Shown here: piece after piece, positions 23,877 through 61,090 of the stretch
Layout of the letters: every line of letters begins with the position of its first letter
Numbering within the stretch: the stretch's first letter is position 1
From: Eledone cirrhosa
Lineage: Eukaryota
DNA length: 64,000 nt
Direction of reading: 5' to 3'
Assembly (NCBI GenBank): GCA_964016885.1
Contig: OZ024765.1
Span: forward strand, 7,254,001-7,318,000
Position numbers and translations under genes: made by a program
Notes under the pieces: generated by a model
Database searches by the model: none
What the model was told of the DNA's origin: nothing
Seen by the model: only the letters and a program-made list of their open reading frames with translations

Positions 23877-23990
23877 CTGACAAAAGAAAAAAACAAAAAG
23901 GTTTTTGTAATTTGCATGAAGCATTGTGTGTGTGTGTGTATGTATGTATATATATATACACACTATCTTCTGATGAAGGACTATGTGTGT

Positions 23991-24042
<52 letters not shown>

Positions 24043-24162
24043 TATGTATGTATGTATGTATATATACATATATATACACTATCTTCTGATGAAGGACTAT
24101 GTGTGTGTATGTATGTATATATATATACACTATCTTCTGATGAAGGACTATGTGTGTGTATG

Positions 24163-24197
<35 letters not shown>

Positions 24198-24231
24198 TAT
24201 CTTCTGATGAAGGACTATGTGTGTGTATGTG

Positions 24232-24264
<33 letters not shown>

Positions 24265-25232
24265 TATCTTCTGATGAAGGACTATGTGTGTGTATGTATA
24301 TATACACTATCTTCTGATGAAGAACTAGTGTCCGAAACATTAAGACTCTTTCTGCTATTTCAAGCGTTAAACTAATATATTTTTTTCCATGTACTGTGAC
24401 ATTTGTTTTGTTATTACTTTTACACACACATCTATGTGTGTGTGTGTGTGTGCGCGCGTGTATGTATGTATGTATGTCAGGTCACCAGTTGGTGCTACTG
24501 GTAACATGTATCCCAGTACAACCTGTCTCATGGTCGGGTCGTTGGCGACTAAACTGGCAACCCCACCAAGGTTTCTTGGTGAGGAGGGTGACTTTGGACA
24601 TCCTGCAGGACTAAAAACAAAACCTGTCAAAGGGCAAAGGAGCTCTTAAGAGTCAATGGCCATCCAAAATCACCAGGAGAGATGACCCCTTAGCCTTTGT
24701 CAAGGCAGAATTCTAGGAGAAGGAACACTCTGATATAACACCTGCAACCCTGATGGTATCCAATGATGTTGACTTGTTCTTCTTTTTGGTAAATATCATC
24801 TTGGTTAAGAGAGTGGGACTGGCTTTGTGCAGTGCCTTTGCTCACTATAAAAGCTTCACGGCACAGGCATTGCTTTATATCTGGAGATCTCTCTGCACTT
24901 GTCGTCACATGGTACCAAGGGCCCAGCACTGTGTCAGTAATTGTCACAAGTGTAGTGTTTGTACCAGAGTTTTCAAGTCACTGGCTGGACTAAAAAGTCA
25001 CACTCGTTCAGCGCTTCGGTAGGGGTTCTCCTACATGGATATAAAGTAGTGGCTGTACTCGAAAACGAGTTGGCAGCCACCATGCATGCATTTTTGGGGC
25101 ATTTTAAGCGTGGTGGAGCCCATCCCTCTTCAGGCCTGAATACAGCAGATTTCTTCCAGAGAAAGATAGAAAATGAGAGAGAGGAAATGAGAAAGAGATA
25201 TAGAGGAAGAACCGACTCCAGTACTAGACTGG

Positions 25233-31239: not shown

Positions 31240-32052
31240 TATGCTTCAGCATGTACCCATGGGAGGTCGGGTACCCTGTATTACTGCGTGACGCCAGAAG
31301 TCACGGTCGTGTGTCATTGACTTTGAGAGGTGTAGTTGGGTAAGGTCGGCTTTTATCACCTCATCCCAAGTCATCTTGGGTCTCCCCACTCCGCGGTTTC
31401 CATCAACTTCTAGTGCTCTGCACCTTTTTATGCAGCTGTCATCCTTCATACGCATCACATGTCCATACCAGCGTAACCGCCTCTCCTGCACGCAGCATTT
31501 GATTCCTCTTATGCTCAGTCTCTCTCTCAATTCATTTATGCTTTGTCGTTCGCGTATATTACTGTTACACATCCATCGGAGCATGCAGGCTTCGTTTCTC
31601 TCTAATCTACGTAAGTCTTCCACCTTCAGCGCCCAGGTCTCACTACCATGCAACATCGCTGTTCGGATACACGCATCATACAGTCTGCCTTTCATTCTGA
31701 GGGAGAAGCCTTTTGCAGCTAGCAGTGGTAGTAGTTCCCTAAACTTCTTCCATCCCGTTCTTACCCTAGTTATTGTACTTTCTGAGCACCCACCTCCGTT
31801 GCTAATTCGGTCACCTAGGTAGCAGAAGCTGTCTACTGTTTCTACAGGGCCCTCCCAGAGATTGGTGGTACTTGTTTCCTGTGGCTGTTTGCTTGCTGTT
31901 TCAGCACAGCTGCTGCATGTGAATCCTACATTCTTAATTAAGCTTCCTGAGATCCCGCTACATCTCTTGTGTACCCATTGTTTGCATTTGGGGCAAAGAA
32001 TGGAGTTCCTACCTACACCTTTCCTACATACTGAACAAGGCCATTTCCCTGA
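31240..32052 (-). mobile_element. 5'-truncated RTE LINE nested in the hAT, with a PHD-like finger
   Basis: Open frame GKWPCSVCRKGVGRNSILCPKCKQWVHKRC...CSSC...FCYLGD...GWKKFRELLPLL...RRLRWYGHV. Confidence 0.88.
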
Positions 32053-32589
32053 AATTGACCAATCACGAACAAGTAAATGTTGGTCGATGACAGCATAACT
32101 TTTAACTGAAAACTTCAGTTCAGCCTAAAGCCTAAAGCCTTCTTATATTATATCTAACTTTGAGTCAAAATAGATAGAAGATATCTGAATTAATTTCCAA
32201 TACCATCGTCACATCTACACTATCAGCTGATTTGCATTTTTTGCACCTTTTAGTATGGCGGATATTTAAATATATTTACATTACCAATAATATTTAATAC
32301 GACCCTAAAGTAGTATATGCAGGAAGTGCTGGACTCTGAAAAAAATTTCTTCTAGTTGTTCATAAATTTGCACCTTTTTCAGTAACCCCTAATATTTTAA
32401 TATGTTTGCCATCCTAAAATGGAGAAATTTCAATTTTTTTTTAATTAAAATTTTTTTTTAACTAGTCAAGTTTTTCCAAATATCTAAAATTAAAGTTAAT
32501 TTAAGTACTTTTTGTAATTAAAAAAACTTAATTTCTCTTGTTTATTAATGTCATATTAAAAATGTTAACTGTAGATAAATAACATTGAT

Positions 32590-34490
32590 ATGATGTCTAC
32601 TGCAAAGAAGCTGAAGTTAGATACCAGCAGTAAGGTTAGACAGTGGTGTGATGATTATGTTAGATATGGATTTCAAAAAGCTGACACTAAAAAAGATACA
32701 CCAGATCAGCCCATGTGTTTGCGATGTTCAAAAGTTCTATCAAATAGCTGTTTAAATCCTGCAAAACTTAAAAGACACCTTGATACTAATCACACCAATG
32801 ATAAAAACAAGTCACTGGAATACTTTACTTCACTGAAAAACAACATAAAAAAATCACAAGTTAATATGTATGACTTGTTTTGTAAAAAGTCAGATAGAAA
32901 TAAAGCTTTAACAAGAACATCTTTTGAGATTTCACATTTGATTGGTAAAAACAAGAAAACATTTACATTAAGAGAACAGTTCATTCTGCCAAGTATAAAA
33001 ATTGCTACAGAGAATCTTTTTGAAAGCTGCAGTATTAAGGACAAAGAAAAATTAAGCCAGTTACCATTGTCAGCAAATACCGTAAAAAGAGGGATAATTG
33101 ATATTTCTTCTGATATAGAAAATCAGATACTAACTGCACTAAAGAAAAGCCCATGTTTTGGTCTGCAAGTGGACGAAACTACGGATATTAATAACAAGGC
33201 TCAATTAATTTGCTATGTACGGTTTGTAGACCTTGATAAAAAAGAATTAGTAGAAGAGTATTTGTTTTGTCTGGCATTAGACATCACAACTAAAGGTCAA
33301 GATATATTCAATAAAATTGAAGAGTATTTTTTTTTAAATGGTGTATCTTGGAGCAAGTTGACTTCAATAACAACAGATGGAGCAGCTGCAATGACTGGTA
33401 AAAATTCTGGTTTGATTGCAAAAATTAAAGAACAGACCCCAAATTGTATTTCAAATCATTGTATAATTCATCCAGAGGATTTGTGTTAAAAAAAATTCAA
33501 AGACAGAGATGCTCAAATATTAAATGACCAGCTGAAAGACATTGTCAAAACTATCAATTTGATCCATGCAAGAGCAAAAAATTCTAGAATGTTTGAATCT
33601 ATTTGTGAATCTTCTGGAAGTAATTATAATAGATTGTTATTGAACAATGATGTGCGTTGGCTGTCTTTTGGGGATGCTATGAAGAGAGTTTTTGAACTGA
33701 GAGAAGAAATAATAGTTTTTCTAAAAAAACAGAATGATGAAAGAGCAAGTGTATTAGAAACCAATGAATGGAATGTGCAACTCGCTTATTTAGTAGACAT
33801 TTTTGGAGAACTGAACAAACTAAATAAGTGTCTTCAGGGTAACAATGCAGATATTTTTACTTCAATCAATTTTATTACATATTTTCAATCAAAATTAAAC
33901 ATCTTTATAAAAAGAATTGAATCGGACAATTACTTTCAAACCTTGAAATAGAGCTTAAAAAGAGAGAAAATTTTGACTCCAGCAATCTAAAGAAGATTAT
34001 TCTTTCTCATTTAAATGTGCTTTCCACAGGTTTTTCAGATTATTTTGACTTGATGGAAAAAGATATTGTTAGCGGAAATTTATGGATAAAAACCCGTTCA
34101 CCGAGATCGAGCAGTTAGTGTCAGAAAATGACGCTGGAAATTGTAAAAATTTACTACCTGCCCAATGCTTACATCAGTTGATGGATTTGAATTCAAACGA
34201 AGACCTGAAAGTGATATTCGAAAGCAGAAAGAAAGAACTATGGATCGACTTATTCTTGATTGGAGAGTTTAATGAAATCAGCCAACTTGCATTGAAGTAT
34301 TTGACTTTATTCCCATCTAGCTATTTGTGCGAAAAAGGGTTTTCGCAGTTGGTGGAAATCTGCACAAAGAAGAGGAATAAACTGTCAGCAATTGACGAGT
34401 GTATGAGACTGGCATTAATTAACTAGTGTTGAACCTCGATTTTCTAAACTCACGGATGAGGTGCAGCAGCAGAAAAGCCATTGTGTTCGA
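32590..34490 (+). pseudogene. Buster-type transposase with a premature stop (33487-33489) and frameshifts (about 33950 and 34420)
   Basis: BED finger (C..C...KLKRHL..NH), FGLQVDETTD, ITTDGAAAMTG, HCIIH, VRWLS, SYLCEKGFS, C-terminal QQQKSH. Confidence 0.9.
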
Positions 34491-37849: not shown

Positions 37850-38318
37850 ATGAGATTTTGATATTTATTTTGAGAACAATACCTTAACATCAGTATGAGT
37901 GGCTGTTACAGTCGGTTTGAACAGAAAGAGGTGAGAGAATTCTGGCTGGATATGGCCGGTTTAAATGCTGTAATCAGCCGCTCATACTTATGTTATGGTA
38001 TTCTCAAAATAAATAACACCAAAATCTCATAGCTTCGATATTATGTGAGATAAAGCCTTTACTGTGAAAATACAATACAAAGCGTGAAAAAATATATATT
38101 GCCACGAAAAAAGCCATTAAAAAATCGCGGAAGATATTTACCAGAAAGATGCAGTAGTTTCCATGAACAATTATCAGTTAGATTCTAAGGAAAATTCCGC
38201 GAATAACCAGGACTCAAAAGTAATATTCATGTAATAGTCAACCCTACAAATTTAGCCTTAAAAATGGTCTAAAAAAATTCAAATTCACATTCATATATAT
38301 ATATATATATATATATAT

Positions 38319-38708
38319 AGTTTTAATATAGATGAGATTCTACAGGACTAGAACTGTTTCATTCATTAGAAATCATCAGGAATCTGGGTATCAAAAAATA
38401 AAAATGGTATTTATAGGTCTCTACAAGTGGTAGGAGAGGGTGGGGAGTGGGATGGGTGTAGGTCATTGGTTGATAGAAAAGGAAATTCATTAAAAGCTAA
38501 TTCTACAAAACTATAGTTTTGTAGAATTAGCTTTTAATGGATTCCCTTTTCTATCAACCAATGACCTACACCCATCCCACTCCCCACCCTCTCCTACCAC
38601 TTGTAGAGACCTATAAATACCATTTTTATTTTTTGATACCCAGATTCCTGATGATTTCTAATGAATGAAACAGTTCTAGTCCTGTAGAATCTCATCTATA
38701 TTAAAACT
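38319..38708. repeat. 390-bp near-perfect palindrome with no spacer, Penelope-like terminal structure
   Basis: 195-bp arms centred at 38513/38514 with 2 mismatches; the unit sits between (TA)n tracts. Confidence 0.92.
38642..38692 (+). ncRNA. Type I hammerhead motif (family B); mirror copy at 38335..38385 on the minus strand
   Basis: AGATTC-CTGATGA-TTTCTAATGAAT-GAAA-CAG ttctagtc CTG-TA-GAATCT; stem II is weak. Confidence 0.65.
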
Positions 38709-38774
38709 TTTATACTCTGCTATGTATTGAGTACCTTACTTACTGTGGTTACCTCCGATTCAACCCGGAATAAC

Positions 38775-38810
<36 letters not shown>

Positions 38811-39239
38811 GATGGTGATCGGAATAGACCTGCTTTTTCTCAAAGTAATTTTTTATTCATTTCTACCACTACTCATTCTCCTCTATTTTCCTATTTCTTC
38901 ATTTAATTTCTCATTCTATTTTCTGATGAAAGACTAGCACCCAAAACGTTAAAGACACTTTTCAAACTATAACAAGCATATAACTAGTATATTTCTTCAT
39001 TGTACTGTGTTGTTTGCTTTGTTATTTCTGATTACTTTTTGCATCACACACATGCATGTATAATCTATTCATCTATATATAGTTTGTACATAGAGAGCAT
39101 GTATGCTCACTCAAACTGCTAGAAACAACAGCCAAATTTCACTCACTCCAAACATAAGCGGTAGGAAACATTTCTCACAAAGATACGGTGAGTCTACCAG
39201 AGAATAACCAAGCTTTCCTCCAGCTCAGAATGGACTTAC

Positions 39240-39990: not shown

Positions 39991-40053
39991 TATAGTAATG
40001 GTTGCATTCTTTAAGGGTATGTCAATATTTATTTATAAAACTACTCTATATTA

Positions 40054-40118
40054 TATTTTATCTGATGAAAGCACACCATAATTTAACTTGGTGTCCTTGA
40101 AATATGTATAATAAAATA
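40054..40118 (+). ncRNA. Minimal type I hammerhead ribozyme motif (family A)
   Basis: TATTTTAT-CTGATGA-stem II (AAG.ACACCA/TGGTGT.CTT)-GAAA-TATGTA-TA-ATAAAATA; stems I, II and III all pair. Confidence 0.72.
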
Positions 40119-40157
40119 AATATCGTTTTATAAATATAGTTTCCATTTGTTAATATC

Positions 40158-40213
<56 letters not shown>

Positions 40214-46903: not shown

Positions 46904-48811
46904 CAATAGAGTAATGTATGTGTGTGAACGGATAATGCGAAATATATTCGGTGAATGGGACGAGATATTTTTAATTTCTTAAGAAATCGATCTATTGCCT
47001 ATAACCAATGACAACGATGTCAATAACATTGGATATAAAAGGGGGTTGCGGGGGGCGAGGGGTTAGTTAAAGATGAAACAAGATGGTGGGGTGTTGATGG
47101 CTGAACTAGAGAATAAACAGAGCAACAAGGGTTGTGGCGGCGGTGATAATTCTAGATGGTGGGTAGAAAGAAAGTGAGCGATAGCGATTATATATGCAAT
47201 GTGTGTGTATATATTATACATACACACACATACATACATTATATATATATATATATAATTCTGAGTTCAAATCCCACCGAGGTTAACTTTGCCTTTCATC
47301 CTTACGGGGTCGATAAAATAAAGTACCAGTAATGCACTGGGTAATTGCTGGCCTTGTGCCAAACGTAGAAACAATTATATATATATATATATATGGCTTA
47401 GTGGTTAGAGCATTGGCCTTGCAATCGAAAGGTTGTGAGTTCAATTCTCAGACCGGGTGATGTGTTACTTCCTTGAGCAAGACACTTTATTTCACATTGC
47501 TCCAGTTTACTCAGCTGTAGAAATGAGATCCCTATCATTCCACTGCAAAGTGGTCGTGGAGGTGCCACGGCAAAAAAGCACCCAGCACTCACTGTAAATG
47601 AGGTTGGTGTTAGGAAGGGCATCCAGCTGTAGAAATCAAGCCAGAATCAGTTCCCGTCCCACCCTTGCAAGCAGGGAAAAAGCGGACGTAAAATGAAATG
47701 AATGAATATATATATATCCACACGCACACACCCACACATATCCAAAGTGAGATAATGCGGCAGTGTATGGGATACAGAGGAGAGTGTGTGTGCGTGCGTG
47801 CGTGCGTGCGTGCGTGCGTGTGTGTGTGTGTGTGTATACTGAGAGAGAGAGAAGTGGATGTCACGGTTAGAGCGACGAACTAGCAACAAGAATCTTTATT
47901 TCTGTTTACTCCGTAATCTAAATATAATCAACACAGCTGAGGTCAATAACCTCAAGAGTATCTACCAGTAATATGCGCGGCATTAAATACCACACATATG
48001 CACGCATTATACGCAAATAACATAGGCCATACTGGAGCACATAGTCATGTCAGGTGAAGGGGGATTAATTGTTGGGTTATCTTTCAGATATTAAAATAAT
48101 AAAACTTAACACATGTATATATACACACACATATGCACATACACACACACATCTACATATACACACACATACATGTACACACACGCACGTGTGCATATAG
48201 CGAACAAAGCAGTAGAGTGAAGTAATGTATTAGTTTAATGCTTGATATAATTGGAAAAGAGTTTACTTTTCAAATACATACATATATAAATATACACACA
48301 CATATATAAATATATACATTCACAGACCAGCACACATCATTTTCGTCTTCGATATACAACAATAGTGTTGGTAAACCAGAACTATAGATATAACGAGAGA
48401 AATCCAGTTGATTCTCTTTTGGAGAATGCTTTCTGTACTTGGTGATAGATAGATATATTTTTTTATTAGCCACAAGGGCGCACAAGAGAAGGGGACAAAA
48501 CAAAGACATGTCGGGGATTTTACATACAGTCGTGTAAAATAATATAAAACAAACAATTATAACAATCGAAATCCCCAATAGGGGGAGGTGCCACAAATGG
48601 GTTGTTTAATACCCCATTGATAGAACAGCCCTCAACTTCAGGAGCGTGTTGTGCAAGTGCTCCTTTCTTCCTTTTGCTCTTCTTCAACCTACAGGTTTAT
48701 ATACAGAGAAGGCCCAATCACTCGGGCCATTTTTGCCACATTCACCCACCTTTGAGTAAATTTACTGGGGTGCAGTGCCTTGGTGATAGAATGATAGATA
48801 GAAATGGTGCC

Positions 48812-49150
48812 TTGGAAAGAAATGAAGCCTCCATTCTTCGATGGATGTGCAATAGCAACATACGCGAATGGCAAAGCATAAATGAACTGTGCAAGAAATT
48901 AGGCATAAAAGGGATCAGATGTGTGCAGGACAGGAGATTGCATTGGTATGGACATGTGATGTGTATGAAGGATGACAGCTGTATAAAAAGGTGCAGAGCG
49001 CTCAAAGTTGATGGTAGCCGTGGAGTAGGCAGACCCAGGAAGACTTGGGATGAGGTAATAAGAGCTGACTTTGCTCAATTACACCTCACTGAGAAAATGA
49101 CAAAGGACCATGACCTCTGGCGCTATGAAGTATTACAGAAGACCCACCCT
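48812..49150 (+). mobile_element. RTE LINE 3' fragment
   Basis: LERNEAS.LRWMC...RRLHWYGHV...GRPRKTWDEVI. Confidence 0.85.
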
Positions 49151-49269
49151 CCATTATTCTCAGGCCGAGGCATATACTCATAAACCTCCCTATATCTACG
49201 TCCCTATTTTACAAAGCATCGTTCCCATCCCTCCCAGATTTCCAACAGTACATAGAAACTTCTGGGTAA

Positions 49270-51672: not shown

Positions 51673-52184
51673 TATTATTATGTAATAAACAACATAAGGC
51701 AATTATTCCATTTACCAGTGGTTTCTTAAAAGCAAAAGGTTTTGCTTTCAATCCTCAGAACGGAAAAATCCTGGTTTGTTTATTGAATTTGGATTACAAA
51801 CAAAAATGCAATCTATATGAAAGTGAGGCTGGAGAAGGGAGAAGGAAAGGAAAAATAAAATAAAATAAAACTATGCATGCAAACACACAAAAAAAAACCC
51901 AAAAGCATACTTACACACACATACATATATACATATATATATATGTACGCATACATATATACATATACACATATATATAAAACGTACACTTACATACACA
52001 AACACATATATACACACATATACACATACAAACATTAATACATATACACACACACACACACACACGCGCGCGCGCATATCCACACACATATATATTTGTT
52101 TATTACATAATAATAATAATTAAGCTCTGTTGCCTACATAGAGCACTCTTTTTTCCTGGACTTTTCCGATGGAATTACTTCATT

Positions 52185-57176: not shown

Positions 57177-57229
57177 ATTTTATTATACATATTTCGGACG
57201 TACAACAGTACGTCCTCATCAGACAAAAT
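57177..57229 (-). ncRNA. Minimal type I hammerhead ribozyme motif (family A), sense to RanBP2 intron 1
   Basis: ATTTTGT-CTGATGA-GGACGTAC TGTT GTACGTCC-GAAA-TATGTA-TA-ATAAAAT. Confidence 0.75.
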
Positions 57230-58911: not shown

Positions 58912-59973
58912 TTCGTGAAGGCGTGTAGCTGAATGGTTAGAGAATTGGGTTGAGGATGTTGAGGTTGTGAGTTCGATTCCTGGACCGGGAAATGCGTTAT
59001 GTCCTTGAGCAAGACACTTTATTTCACGTTGCTCCTTCTACCTGGAGTTGCGACCGATAGATAGTACTAGCAACTGGAAAGACCAACGGAAACATTGTTT
59101 CCTCGGTCCGATTTGACGAAAGTCGATCGATCCATTAATATATATATACATAGATATATTTCTTTATTAGCCACAGGGGCACAAAAGAAGGGGACAAATA
59201 CAAAGGGGGAAGTTTACATACAATAAAAACGTGTCATAGATAGATAAGAACATATTAAGTTACATATGTCCATCGGGAATCGACTTAATATAAATATATA
59301 TATAATCCATTTAATTGCGTTTTGCATCACGTCAAACATTTCATAAGGATGAAAGGCAAAGTTAACCTCGGCGGGATTTGAACTCAGAACGTAAAGGGCC
59401 ATAACTCTAAACCGTAAAGCATGGTGTCTGACGCTCTACCGATACTGCCAAAGGATGCATTGCCCTACGGTTCAGCTTCTGCCGTTTCGACAGCAGATCA
59501 AAGAATATTTATATCTTCACTCTACTTTTCTTAAGAAGAGTTGTACTAGTAAGAGTAAAGTCTTACAGGTCTTTAACTAGAAACATCTGATCTATATAAT
59601 CTCTGTTTATATATATTATACATACATACACACACACAAAGGCCGAAACACTTGCTTGAGGATTATAAGATGTGGGGGTGCACTTTGAATCTCTCTTAGG
59701 AGTTTCTTACCACGAGAGAGAGAGAGAAAGAGAGAGAGATTTAATTTGTTGGAAATTCAACAAATATAAATGTTTATAACTGATTCAGAGCATTCGACAA
59801 GTTACTGGAGTAATATGATATTAAATAAATGGAAACTATATTTATAAAACCATATTTATTCTAGGGTACCAAAAAACTTTGGTACGCTTTCATCAGATAA
59901 AATACAAAGAGTGTTTTATAAATTTTGACATAACCAAGGAACATACCTTAACGGTTGAATTTTACTTGGATAG

Positions 59974-60056
<83 letters not shown>

Positions 60057-61090
60057 AGATCAAAAGATGGTTAAAAGAGTTCCATGTATTTTATTATGCG
60101 CATTTCAAAAACAAATATCATCATGCGATGACATTTGCGTTTTCGTCAGATAAAATAGGGAGACATGATATGAAGGTTAAAAAACACTTGTGAATAGTGC
60201 AGTTTTAAATCAACCATCTTTTGATCTTATATTATTTATACTCCAGTCCTACAAACTGTAGAGTGCTACTTATCCGATATCTGCATTGCTTTATTGTACT
60301 ACAATAAAACTCACTCCTACATATAAATATATATATATATACATTAGATTGTGTATATATATACACACACACACACAAATACACGTGTGTGTGTATTATC
60401 AGTTAATAAAGGATTTAAAATATTTAAGTAGATTTTTCCTAGTAAAAAATCGTGACTTTTAAACTCCATTTCCGCCTACCTACCGGCCAACTCAGATGAT
60501 TTCAAACACATTAAACGGTTTTATCTACACACATGTGTGTATGTGTCTATATACACACATACGAAATATAATTAATAACCAGAGAGGTATGTATATTGTG
60601 TGTACAATGAACAGATTCTATATAAAAACATGTAGATCCACAAGTGTGTGTGTATGTATGTGTATATATATGCACACACAACGTATTTTAAAAGTGTATG
60701 TATGTATACATATACATTTACGCATATATGTACCTTACATACATATACATATATATATGTATACAAACAATATATATATCGCATTTCAACATACGTTGTA
60801 CATGCTACATAGAGATTTTTATAGGGTCTATGAAAACTAACCAGGAAATAAAATGTGTGTATGTATATATATATATATGTATACACATCGGCGTATAACA
60901 CATACCCTAATTTTGAGAAGGAAGTTTAAGTAACGAAAAATATATATATACCTCTATAATAGACACACATGCATAGCTATAATACACGCACATATATATT
61001 TATATACTTACATCTATAATACACACAAACATCATATACATATAATACTCATATATATATAGCTATAAAATACACATACATCTATAATAC

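What the first reader, a model, noticed from the sequence alone, without database searches (positions are those of the whole stretch)
40054..40118. Second family-A hammerhead with a different but still paired stem II
Seen: it has the same core, the same stem III (GAAAUAUGUAUA) and an equivalent stem I as the 57177 copy, but stem II is different sequence that still pairs. A third copy at about 59815-59905 (-) shares the downstream flank, has yet another paired stem II (GUACC/GGUAC) and has lost GAAA and stem III by deletion. Inference: structure rather than sequence is conserved, which points to a hammerhead-carrying, (TA)n-associated non-autonomous retroelement family that may be undescribed in this lineage.
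Basis: partly seen in the sequence, partly recalled or inferred. Interest (0 to 1): 0.75.

Follow-up and report, generated by a model that had tools for sequence, protein, structure and literature searches.

The report
Penelope retroelement stub with hammerhead ribozyme
This is an intact hammerhead RNA motif, predicted to cut itself in pairs, at the end of a short stub of a known kind of animal jumping gene (Hydra-clade Penelope-like elements); the genome holds tens of thousands of such motifs, so it is an ordinary class, here unusually abundant.

Summary
The motif is real. 40054-40118 is a complete type I hammerhead with a palindromic, dimer-type helix III. Its 35-nt core plus stem II occurs 3,560 times exactly, and a family-wide pattern 80,712 times against 1 for the control. 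Stem II covaries across families. The 'undescribed non-autonomous family' reading is mostly wrong. The ~165-bp unit is the 3' end (pLTR) of a Penelope-like element: 20 of 20 loci picked by the endonuclease alone carry it, and four show pLTR-ORF-pLTR. The 742-aa ORF folds like telomerase RT and has the Hydra-clade motifs. Craig et al. 2021 already list an octopus Hydra family with a hammerhead and (TA)n targets. The 57177 copy is a different family; the third copy's 15-nt deletion is confirmed; an intact fourth copy (60087-60157) was missed. Worth keeping: a conserved unpaired C in stem II, and 5' ends that cluster 60-100 nt upstream of the core (33 of 85), with at most 1 of 85 at the cut site. 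Cutting and expression are untested. The scan noted Hydra-clade hammerheads in this genome and similar stubs in other genomes before.

The parts
39994..40161 (+). 5'-truncated copy of a Hydra-clade Penelope-like element: the 3' end (pLTR) only, without the ~90-nt tail
   Evidence: 97.0% over 168 nt to the 3' pLTR of ORF-bearing locus L125; 96-100% to about 40 dispersed copies; ends at the same junction as ORF-bearing copies
40054..40118 (+). Type I hammerhead motif, sense to the element's ORF
40062..40068 (+). Core CUGAUGA
   Evidence: only N7 varies among 131 distinct matches, the rest fixed by the pattern
40069..40098 (+). Stem II: 3 bp (A10.1-U11.1 closing), unpaired C.C, 6 bp, 10-nt loop
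40099..40110 (+). GAAA, palindromic helix III (AUAUGUAU) and AUA triplet; predicted cut after 40110
   Evidence: self-duplex -2.2 kcal/mol; cleavage untested
40159..40199 (.). (TA)20 run at the 3' junction; likely target microsatellite
   Evidence: TA runs flank most copies
57177..57229 (-). Hammerhead of a second family (short stem II, G10.1-C11.1), within an inverted-plus-tail insertion
   Evidence: same-strand endonuclease about 1.5 kb upstream in L249
59739..59935 (-). Sister-subfamily copy with tail; hammerhead broken by a 15-nt deletion of GAAA and helix III
60087..60157 (-). Intact hammerhead of a third, very young family (long stem II, palindrome AUGCGCAU), not in the finding as given
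   Evidence: 40 places at 100% identity; RT-EN frames upstream in L075

Best explanation
The feature is a type I hammerhead motif in the 3' end (pseudo-LTR) of a short, 5'-truncated copy of a Hydra-clade Penelope-like retroelement that lies in a (TA)n microsatellite, and it likely cuts RNA only as a dimer. Shown: the same unit sits about 1.5-1.85 kb behind the stop of a ~740-aa RT plus GIY-YIG-type ORF and, in partial tandems, again about 235 nt before its ATG. Inferred: transcription starts in the upstream pLTR near 88 nt before the core. The element's endonuclease nicks (TA)n, and its RT starts copying at two internal sites (about +97 and +190 from the core). Copying from the 5' pLTR would run off the RNA's 5' end and leave stubs like this one; copying from the 3' pLTR gives long copies. 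The palindromic helix III would let two hammerheads, 4 kb apart in a pLTR-ORF-pLTR transcript, pair and cut after AUA. Stem II has been kept under structural selection in the active lineages, not in this dead copy. The cut RNA is probably not the main template.
For: Link to ORF: 20 of 20 loci chosen only by endonuclease match (top hits and long frames among 151, not random) hold the unit within 9 kb; 15 of 20 in sense 1.46-1.85 kb downstream, 4 of 20 as direct pLTR-ORF-pLTR. Protein: open 742-aa frames in L121 and L123; model pLDDT 89 with telomerase TERT as top fold match; RW-R/K, DKT, YRDD, CxCx5C, CxxC-E-N-CxH are conserved in 75 aligned sequences, matching the Hydra definition (PMC8557442 section 11). 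Anatomy: tail in 14 of 28 and an opposite-strand copy within 1.5 kb in 12 of 28 best hits; tail in 32 of 85 unbiased copies; the tail is the 5' UTR of the next unit. Structure: stem II positions 1-3, 5, 6 pair in 21-23 of 24 stem-II clusters (0 of 10,000 permutations); on 20 of those 24, 7 of 8 stem II pairs show two-sided changes and 0 of 500 shuffles reach the covariation score. Precedent: dimer-type minimal hammerheads in pLTRs (PMC4209133), internal RT starts at tail ends (PMC11167929), transcript start in the pLTR (PMC2377424).
Against: No cleavage or expression data. Rfam gave no hammerhead hit. The closing pair is A-U in 13 and G.U in 7 of 24 clusters and G-C in only 3, unlike the conserved G10.1-C11.1 of minimal PLE hammerheads; the dimer helix is weak here (-2.2 kcal/mol) and the monomer's best fold is not the active one. 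Fully open ORFs were seen only in the 88%-identical sister subfamily; of the closest copies L120 has one internal stop and L125 is broken. Sequence-profile searches gave no RT or GIY-YIG family hit (Pfam; PDB), and the fold search listed RT folds only, so the endonuclease rests on motifs. Clade was assigned by motifs, without a tree. The covariation controls do not correct for relatedness; helix III and part of stem I were fixed by my pattern. The transcription start is inferred from DNA ends only.
Confidence: 0.88

Rival explanations
1. The short units are a self-propagating non-autonomous family (SINE- or retrozyme-like) derived from the pLTR and copied in trans by the Hydra RT.
For: Short copies dominate and share a 5' end zone: 24 of 28 best hits, 33 of 85 unbiased copies, and most of 26 second-family copies start within a few bases of one site. 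Retrozymes are reported as pLTR derivatives (bioRxiv 10.64898/2026.07.22.740005). A stub that keeps the promoter and tail could be re-copied.
Against: Short copies are 95-98% identical to ORF-linked ends and I saw no separate diagnostic group. 5' ends are ragged and run on to beyond -600. No head-to-tail arrays among loci examined; pairs are head-to-head. A tail-less stub such as this one lacks the downstream hairpin.
Confidence: 0.15
2. The origin is as above, but the 5' end cluster comes from fold-back or RT stalling at a near-palindrome about 80 nt upstream of the core, not from a transcription start.
For: Many head-to-head pairs turn round at that near-palindrome (L003, L009, L012, L022).
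Against: The upper edge of the cluster falls on a CA-CTA motif at -88/-89 in 8 of 8 long copies inspected, the second family starts at a like motif with different downstream sequence, and full-length L134 starts at about -86.
Confidence: 0.3
3. The hammerhead fold is kept for a non-catalytic role (protein binding or RNA packaging) and does not cut in vivo.
For: Non-canonical closing pair and weak dimer helix; at most 1 of 85 copies starts at the cut site; in the anole element, cleavage is not needed for insertion in vitro and no RNA ends map to the cut (PMC11167929).
Against: Core and a valid triplet are present in families whose proteins are only 45-60% identical; tested PLE hammerheads do cut, slowly. 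Core conservation was partly imposed by my pattern.
Confidence: 0.25
4. Chance motif in AT-rich DNA.
For: No Rfam hit; fold z only -1.85.
Against: 4 against 0.01 in window shuffles; 80,712 against 1 genome-wide; covariation.
Confidence: 0.01

Closest known systems
Hydra clade of C-terminal EN+ Penelope-like elements, e.g. Hydra-1_Obim of Octopus bimaculoides (Craig et al. 2021, PMC8557442; seen: passages, section 11, supplement parts 1-2 and search rows)
   Same: RT then GIY-YIG-type endonuclease in one ORF; RWK-like, DKT, CxCx5C, CxxC and CxH motifs; sense type I hammerhead near the 3' end; (TA)n insertion; tail and inverted copies.
   Different: A different family: the listed Hydra-1_Obim hammerhead differs in sequence (by eye) and two 14-nt motifs of these families give no further hit in the supplement. 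Unit length about 4.1 kb with a ~1.6-kb 3' UTR against 'generally <3 kb'; tens of thousands of copies; direct pLTRs present, where Hydra-1_Obim is noted as 'no pLTR'.
[quoted passage not shown]
   Same: Type I, short palindromic helix III, many sequence families per genome with compensatory changes, mostly solo or opposite-strand pairs from truncated elements.
   Different: No extra nucleotide between 9 and 10.1; closing pair mostly A-U or G.U; a conserved unpaired C three pairs into stem II; 80,712 pattern matches against about 9,000 reported for Xenopus (different descriptors, not directly comparable).
Poseidon element of Anolis carolinensis (Frangieh et al. 2024, PMC11167929; seen: part 1 of 4 and passages)
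   Same: Two 3' ends separated by a tail that is the start of the next unit; AT-rich targets; cut RNA apparently not the template.
   Different: Here the tail is about 90 nt, and both ends and the hammerhead lie upstream of the ATG rather than inside the ORF.
Non-LTR retrozymes (PMC7229834, search listing only; bioRxiv 10.64898/2026.07.22.740005, part 1 of 5 and passages)
   Same: Short non-coding units with type I hammerheads related to pLTRs.
   Different: Retrozymes are defined by head-to-tail tandem units; these copies are solo or head-to-head and continuous with ORF-bearing elements.

Membership tests
Type I hammerhead ribozyme | Core CUGANGA ... GAAA ... NUH around three helices, open helix I | tested here: met
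Type I hammerhead ribozyme | Covariation in helix II across independent families | tested here: met
   controls do not correct for relatedness; R-scape not available
Type I hammerhead ribozyme | Match to an Rfam hammerhead model | tested here: not met
   no hammerhead family among 130 matches at E<=1; a library match, not a structural requirement
Type I hammerhead ribozyme | Self-cleavage | not testable with these tools
   needs an in vitro assay
PLE minimal hammerhead (Cervera 2014 consensus) | Short palindromic helix III | tested here: met
   AUAUGUAU and AUGCGCAU found by the unconstrained scan; self-duplexes form
PLE minimal hammerhead (Cervera 2014 consensus) | Extra nucleotide between 9 and 10.1 and G10.1-C11.1 | tested here: not met
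   G-C in 3 of 24 clusters, direct pairing from 10.1; listed Hydra hammerheads also often lack G-C there
EN+ Penelope-like element | Single ORF with telomerase-like RT | tested here: met
   742-aa frames; YRDD in 75 of 75; TERT is the top fold match
EN+ Penelope-like element | C-terminal GIY-YIG endonuclease | tested here: inconclusive
   Y622, Y635-x-G637, R646, H650, E705, N717 conserved fit the motif as recalled and as described; no Pfam or fold hit to GIY-YIG
EN+ Penelope-like element | pLTR partial tandems, inverted 5' copies, optional tail | tested here: met
Hydra clade | RWK motif, DKT, CxCx5C linker, CxxC and CxH around E and N | tested here: met
   R37-W38, D118-K119-T, C601/C603/C609, C699/C702, C726/H728
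Hydra clade | (TA)n insertion and canonical hammerhead | tested here: met
Hydra clade | Length generally under 3 kb | tested here: not met
   pLTR-to-pLTR spacing 3.95-4.3 kb; a descriptive trait in the paper, not a diagnostic
Hydra clade | RT phylogeny groups with Hydra references | not tested
   reference proteins exist only in the paper's supplement and were compared by eye
Non-LTR retrozyme | Head-to-tail tandem units each with a hammerhead | tested here: not met
   none in loci; the whole genome was not scanned for arrays
Non-LTR retrozyme | Abundant circular RNA | not testable with these tools
   no suitable RNA run (see Tried and rejected)

The most novel reading that the evidence does not exclude
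This genome's tens of thousands of Hydra-element stubs record the copying cycle: they are run-off cDNAs from a transcription start about 88 nt before the hammerhead to two hairpin-marked RT starts, and the hammerhead-cut RNA is almost never inserted. The hammerheads are a distinct variant with a weak closing pair and an invariant unpaired C in stem II that makes an undescribed tertiary or protein contact. The ribozyme would then serve to destroy or gate tandem transcripts rather than to release the template.
Probability: 0.3. Interest if true: 0.55.

Novelty: new member of a known kind. Interest (0 to 1): 0.3.

Why it matters
The class is known, so the finding is not surprising in kind. It adds several Hydra-clade families, a small and little-sampled clade, that have amplified massively and recently in a probable octopod genome, with open ORFs. 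The role of the pLTR hammerhead is an open question; a genome with at least 80,000 copies in many sister families lets it be tested by counting where copies start and by assaying natural variants. The first sample says that cut RNA is rarely the template.

Tried and rejected
Neptune clade: my first reading (note), dropped when the motifs fitted Hydra. Rfam scan: only microsatellite-driven miRNA and weak tRNA matches. Pfam on ORF pieces and whole ORFs: no relevant family; a scan of the alignment was over the size limit and not repeated. PDB by sequence: nothing. RT or endonuclease inside the window: no tblastn hit to the element's protein. Expression: no RNA holder listed; contigs of four runs of unknown kind cover only the unit and cannot show ends or strand; not used as evidence. 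Second family's ORF: none in the 1.5-kb flanks of 20 best-hit loci or in L238; found only after extending upstream (3 of 15 loci with ORF hits, one same-strand upstream, plus L239). Rows dropped: 2 duplicate loci of 30; 4 of 24 clusters left out of the alignment for (L117 near-duplicate, L152, and mis-registered L106 and L161 matches), all 24 counted. The '+201' second end includes TA run; one search corrects it to about +190. Lunse et al. (PMC5785218) is not held and may already describe the stem II mismatch or cephalopod examples; I saw only its citation and a review passage (PMC6765202). Searches for print on these families: 'hammerhead+octopus+penelope', 'hammerhead ribozyme+cephalopod', 'octopus+penelope+transposable element+neptune', 'hydra clade+penelope'; only PMC8557442 bears on it. 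Repbase and Dfam could not be searched; bioRxiv supplements and picture pages were not seen.

Full report
What is there. At 40054-40118 (+) the window holds a complete type I hammerhead layout: 8-bp stem I, CUGAUGA, a stem II of 3 bp, a C.C mismatch and 6 bp, GAAA, the palindrome AUAUGUAU as helix III and an AUA triplet with the predicted cut after 40110. It lies between a CA/TA-rich satellite and (TA)20. The window has three more descriptor matches, with cores at 57222, 60149 and 51758 (all -), and a broken one at 59896 (-). Shuffled windows give 0.01 matches on average, in 300 shuffles. Against this, Rfam reports no hammerhead and the isolated motif folds at z -1.85.

A high-copy repeat, in several families. 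The genome is 3.0 Gb; relatives of the element's protein include Argonauta, so it is probably an octopod (inference). The 154-bp unit matches about 40 dispersed places at 96-100% among the 40 of 439 candidates scored. The 35-nt core plus stem II occurs exactly 3,560 times, a 32-nt 3' piece 11,061 times, and a pattern covering the sister families 80,712 times against 1 for the reversed control. The 57177 copy shares only the core words with 40054 and has its own family. The 60149 copy belongs to a third family with many 100%-identical copies, so it is very young.

Structure is conserved across families. Among 131 distinct matches in the fetched loci, grouped into 24 stem II clusters, positions 1, 2, 3, 5 and 6 of stem II pair in 23, 22, 21, 22 and 21 clusters. 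Position 4 pairs in 1 of 24 and is C in 22 of 24; no permutation of 10,000 reaches the pairing of positions 1-3. On an alignment of 20 of the 24, 90% of cells pair, 7 of 8 stem II pairs have two-sided changes, 0 of 500 shuffles reach the covariation score and slid controls fall to 35-55%. These controls ignore relatedness, and my pattern fixed helix III and part of stem I, so only stem II counts as evidence. Within a family there is almost no variation, so the covariation reflects selection in the active lineages.

What carries it. Longer copies run upstream into a 3' UTR and then an RT-endonuclease ORF. I searched the genome with the endonuclease region alone and fetched 20 of 151 matches, chosen for rank or long frames. 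All 20 hold the unit within 9 kb: 15 in sense 1.46-1.85 kb past the domain, the rest inverted or upstream, and four as direct pLTR-ORF-pLTR. In partial tandems the hammerhead core lies about 235 nt before the ATG, and the optional tail is the first ~90 nt of that leader. L121 and L123 have open 742-aa frames; they belong to an 88%-identical sister subfamily, while the closest copies examined are interrupted. The model (pLDDT 89) matches telomerase TERT first. The motifs RW, DKT, YRDD, CxCx5C, CxxC, E, N and CxH are conserved over 75 sequences and are those given for the Hydra clade (PMC8557442). The other two families link to related ORFs of 45-60% identity. No part of the ORF is in the window.

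How it likely works. Shown: two 3' ends (about +97 and +190 from the core), TA junctions, head-to-head pairs, and partial tandems. From published work: the Penelope transcript starts in the upstream pLTR (PMC2377424, passages); RT starts at two internal sites that bound the tail, the endonuclease prefers AT-rich DNA, and hammerhead cleavage is not needed in vitro (PMC11167929); palindromic helix III hammerheads cut weakly as dimers (PMC4209133; review PMC6765202). Inferred here: in the first 85 of 11,061 copies anchored on the 3' piece, 33 begin 60-100 nt upstream of the core, 20 further upstream, 15 at -60 to -20, 16 at -20 to +44 and 1 near the cut site. Subfamily divergence shortens some of these estimates, so the peak is somewhat inflated. 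The upper edge of the peak falls on a CA-CTA motif at -88/-89, which suits a transcription start; a fold-back at a nearby near-palindrome is the rival. The window copy starts at -68, inside this peak. Only direct pLTR-ORF-pLTR units put two hammerheads in one RNA; head-to-head pairs put them on opposite strands.

Comparison and verdict. It works like the dimer-type pLTR hammerheads, and the carrier meets the Hydra motifs; no tree was made and the endonuclease rests on motifs alone. Craig et al. list Hydra-1_Obim from Octopus bimaculoides with a hammerhead and (TA)n targets, so the class is described in this lineage, though these families were not found in their supplement or in four literature searches. 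Earlier notes of this scan record Hydra-clade hammerheads in this genome and similar stubs in sharks and skates; I had reached the Hydra call before reading them, and I checked their twin-hairpin lead: a repeated motif lies 16-19 nt behind each 3' end in 4 of 4 copies. Verdict: real, a new family of a known kind, interest 0.3. The copy number, the stem II mismatch and the end statistics are the parts worth keeping.

Noticed in passing
window 60087-60157 (-), with an inverted tail to about 60363: Intact hammerhead of a very young family: 40 places at 100% identity over 155 nt; strong palindrome AUGCGCAU (-10.5 kcal/mol); best candidate for a cleavage assay.
   Followed up: partly
window 51706-51765 (-): Separate type I hammerhead candidate with an 11-bp stem II, U10.1-A11.1 and a 3-bp helix III with GUA triplet; family not searched.
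   Followed up: no
window 23925-24360 (+) and 38905-38970 (+): Repeated CUGAUGA half-cores in TA-rich tandem units, the last followed by a short stem and GAAAC; relatives in L037 and L063. Possibly another hammerhead-related family; earlier scan notes on scrambled Naiad hammerheads may apply.
   Followed up: no
L125:2585-2690, L121, L134, L135 (5' leader): A twin 15-nt motif at +115 and +205 from the core, each 16-19 nt behind one of the two 3' ends and closing a small hairpin.
   Followed up: partly
L134, L123, L135, L136, L137 near -89 to -58 from the core: An initiator-like CA followed at +28 (at +27 in L125) by a word fitting a DPE-like consensus (consensus recalled, from no call); absent in the second family.
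   Followed up: partly
L031:1549-5638: A different Hydra-like element (41% protein identity) nested, with inverted ends, in a TA run inside the 3' UTR of the family studied.
   Followed up: no
L017:996-1084, L021:1289-1377: A distant hammerhead family with unrelated stem I keeps the unpaired C in stem II (L017) and a UAUAUA palindrome.
   Followed up: no
window 38290-38810: Large inverted repeat between TA runs with CUGAUGA on both arms, the layout of a head-to-head PLE stub.
   Followed up: no
window 32575-33951 (+): Two consecutive frames (304 and 153 aa) that look like a hAT/ZBED-type transposase (by eye).
   Followed up: no
window 31246-32124 (-) and 48563-49183 (+): Fragments that look like the C-terminal part of an RTE-type LINE (by eye).
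   Followed up: no
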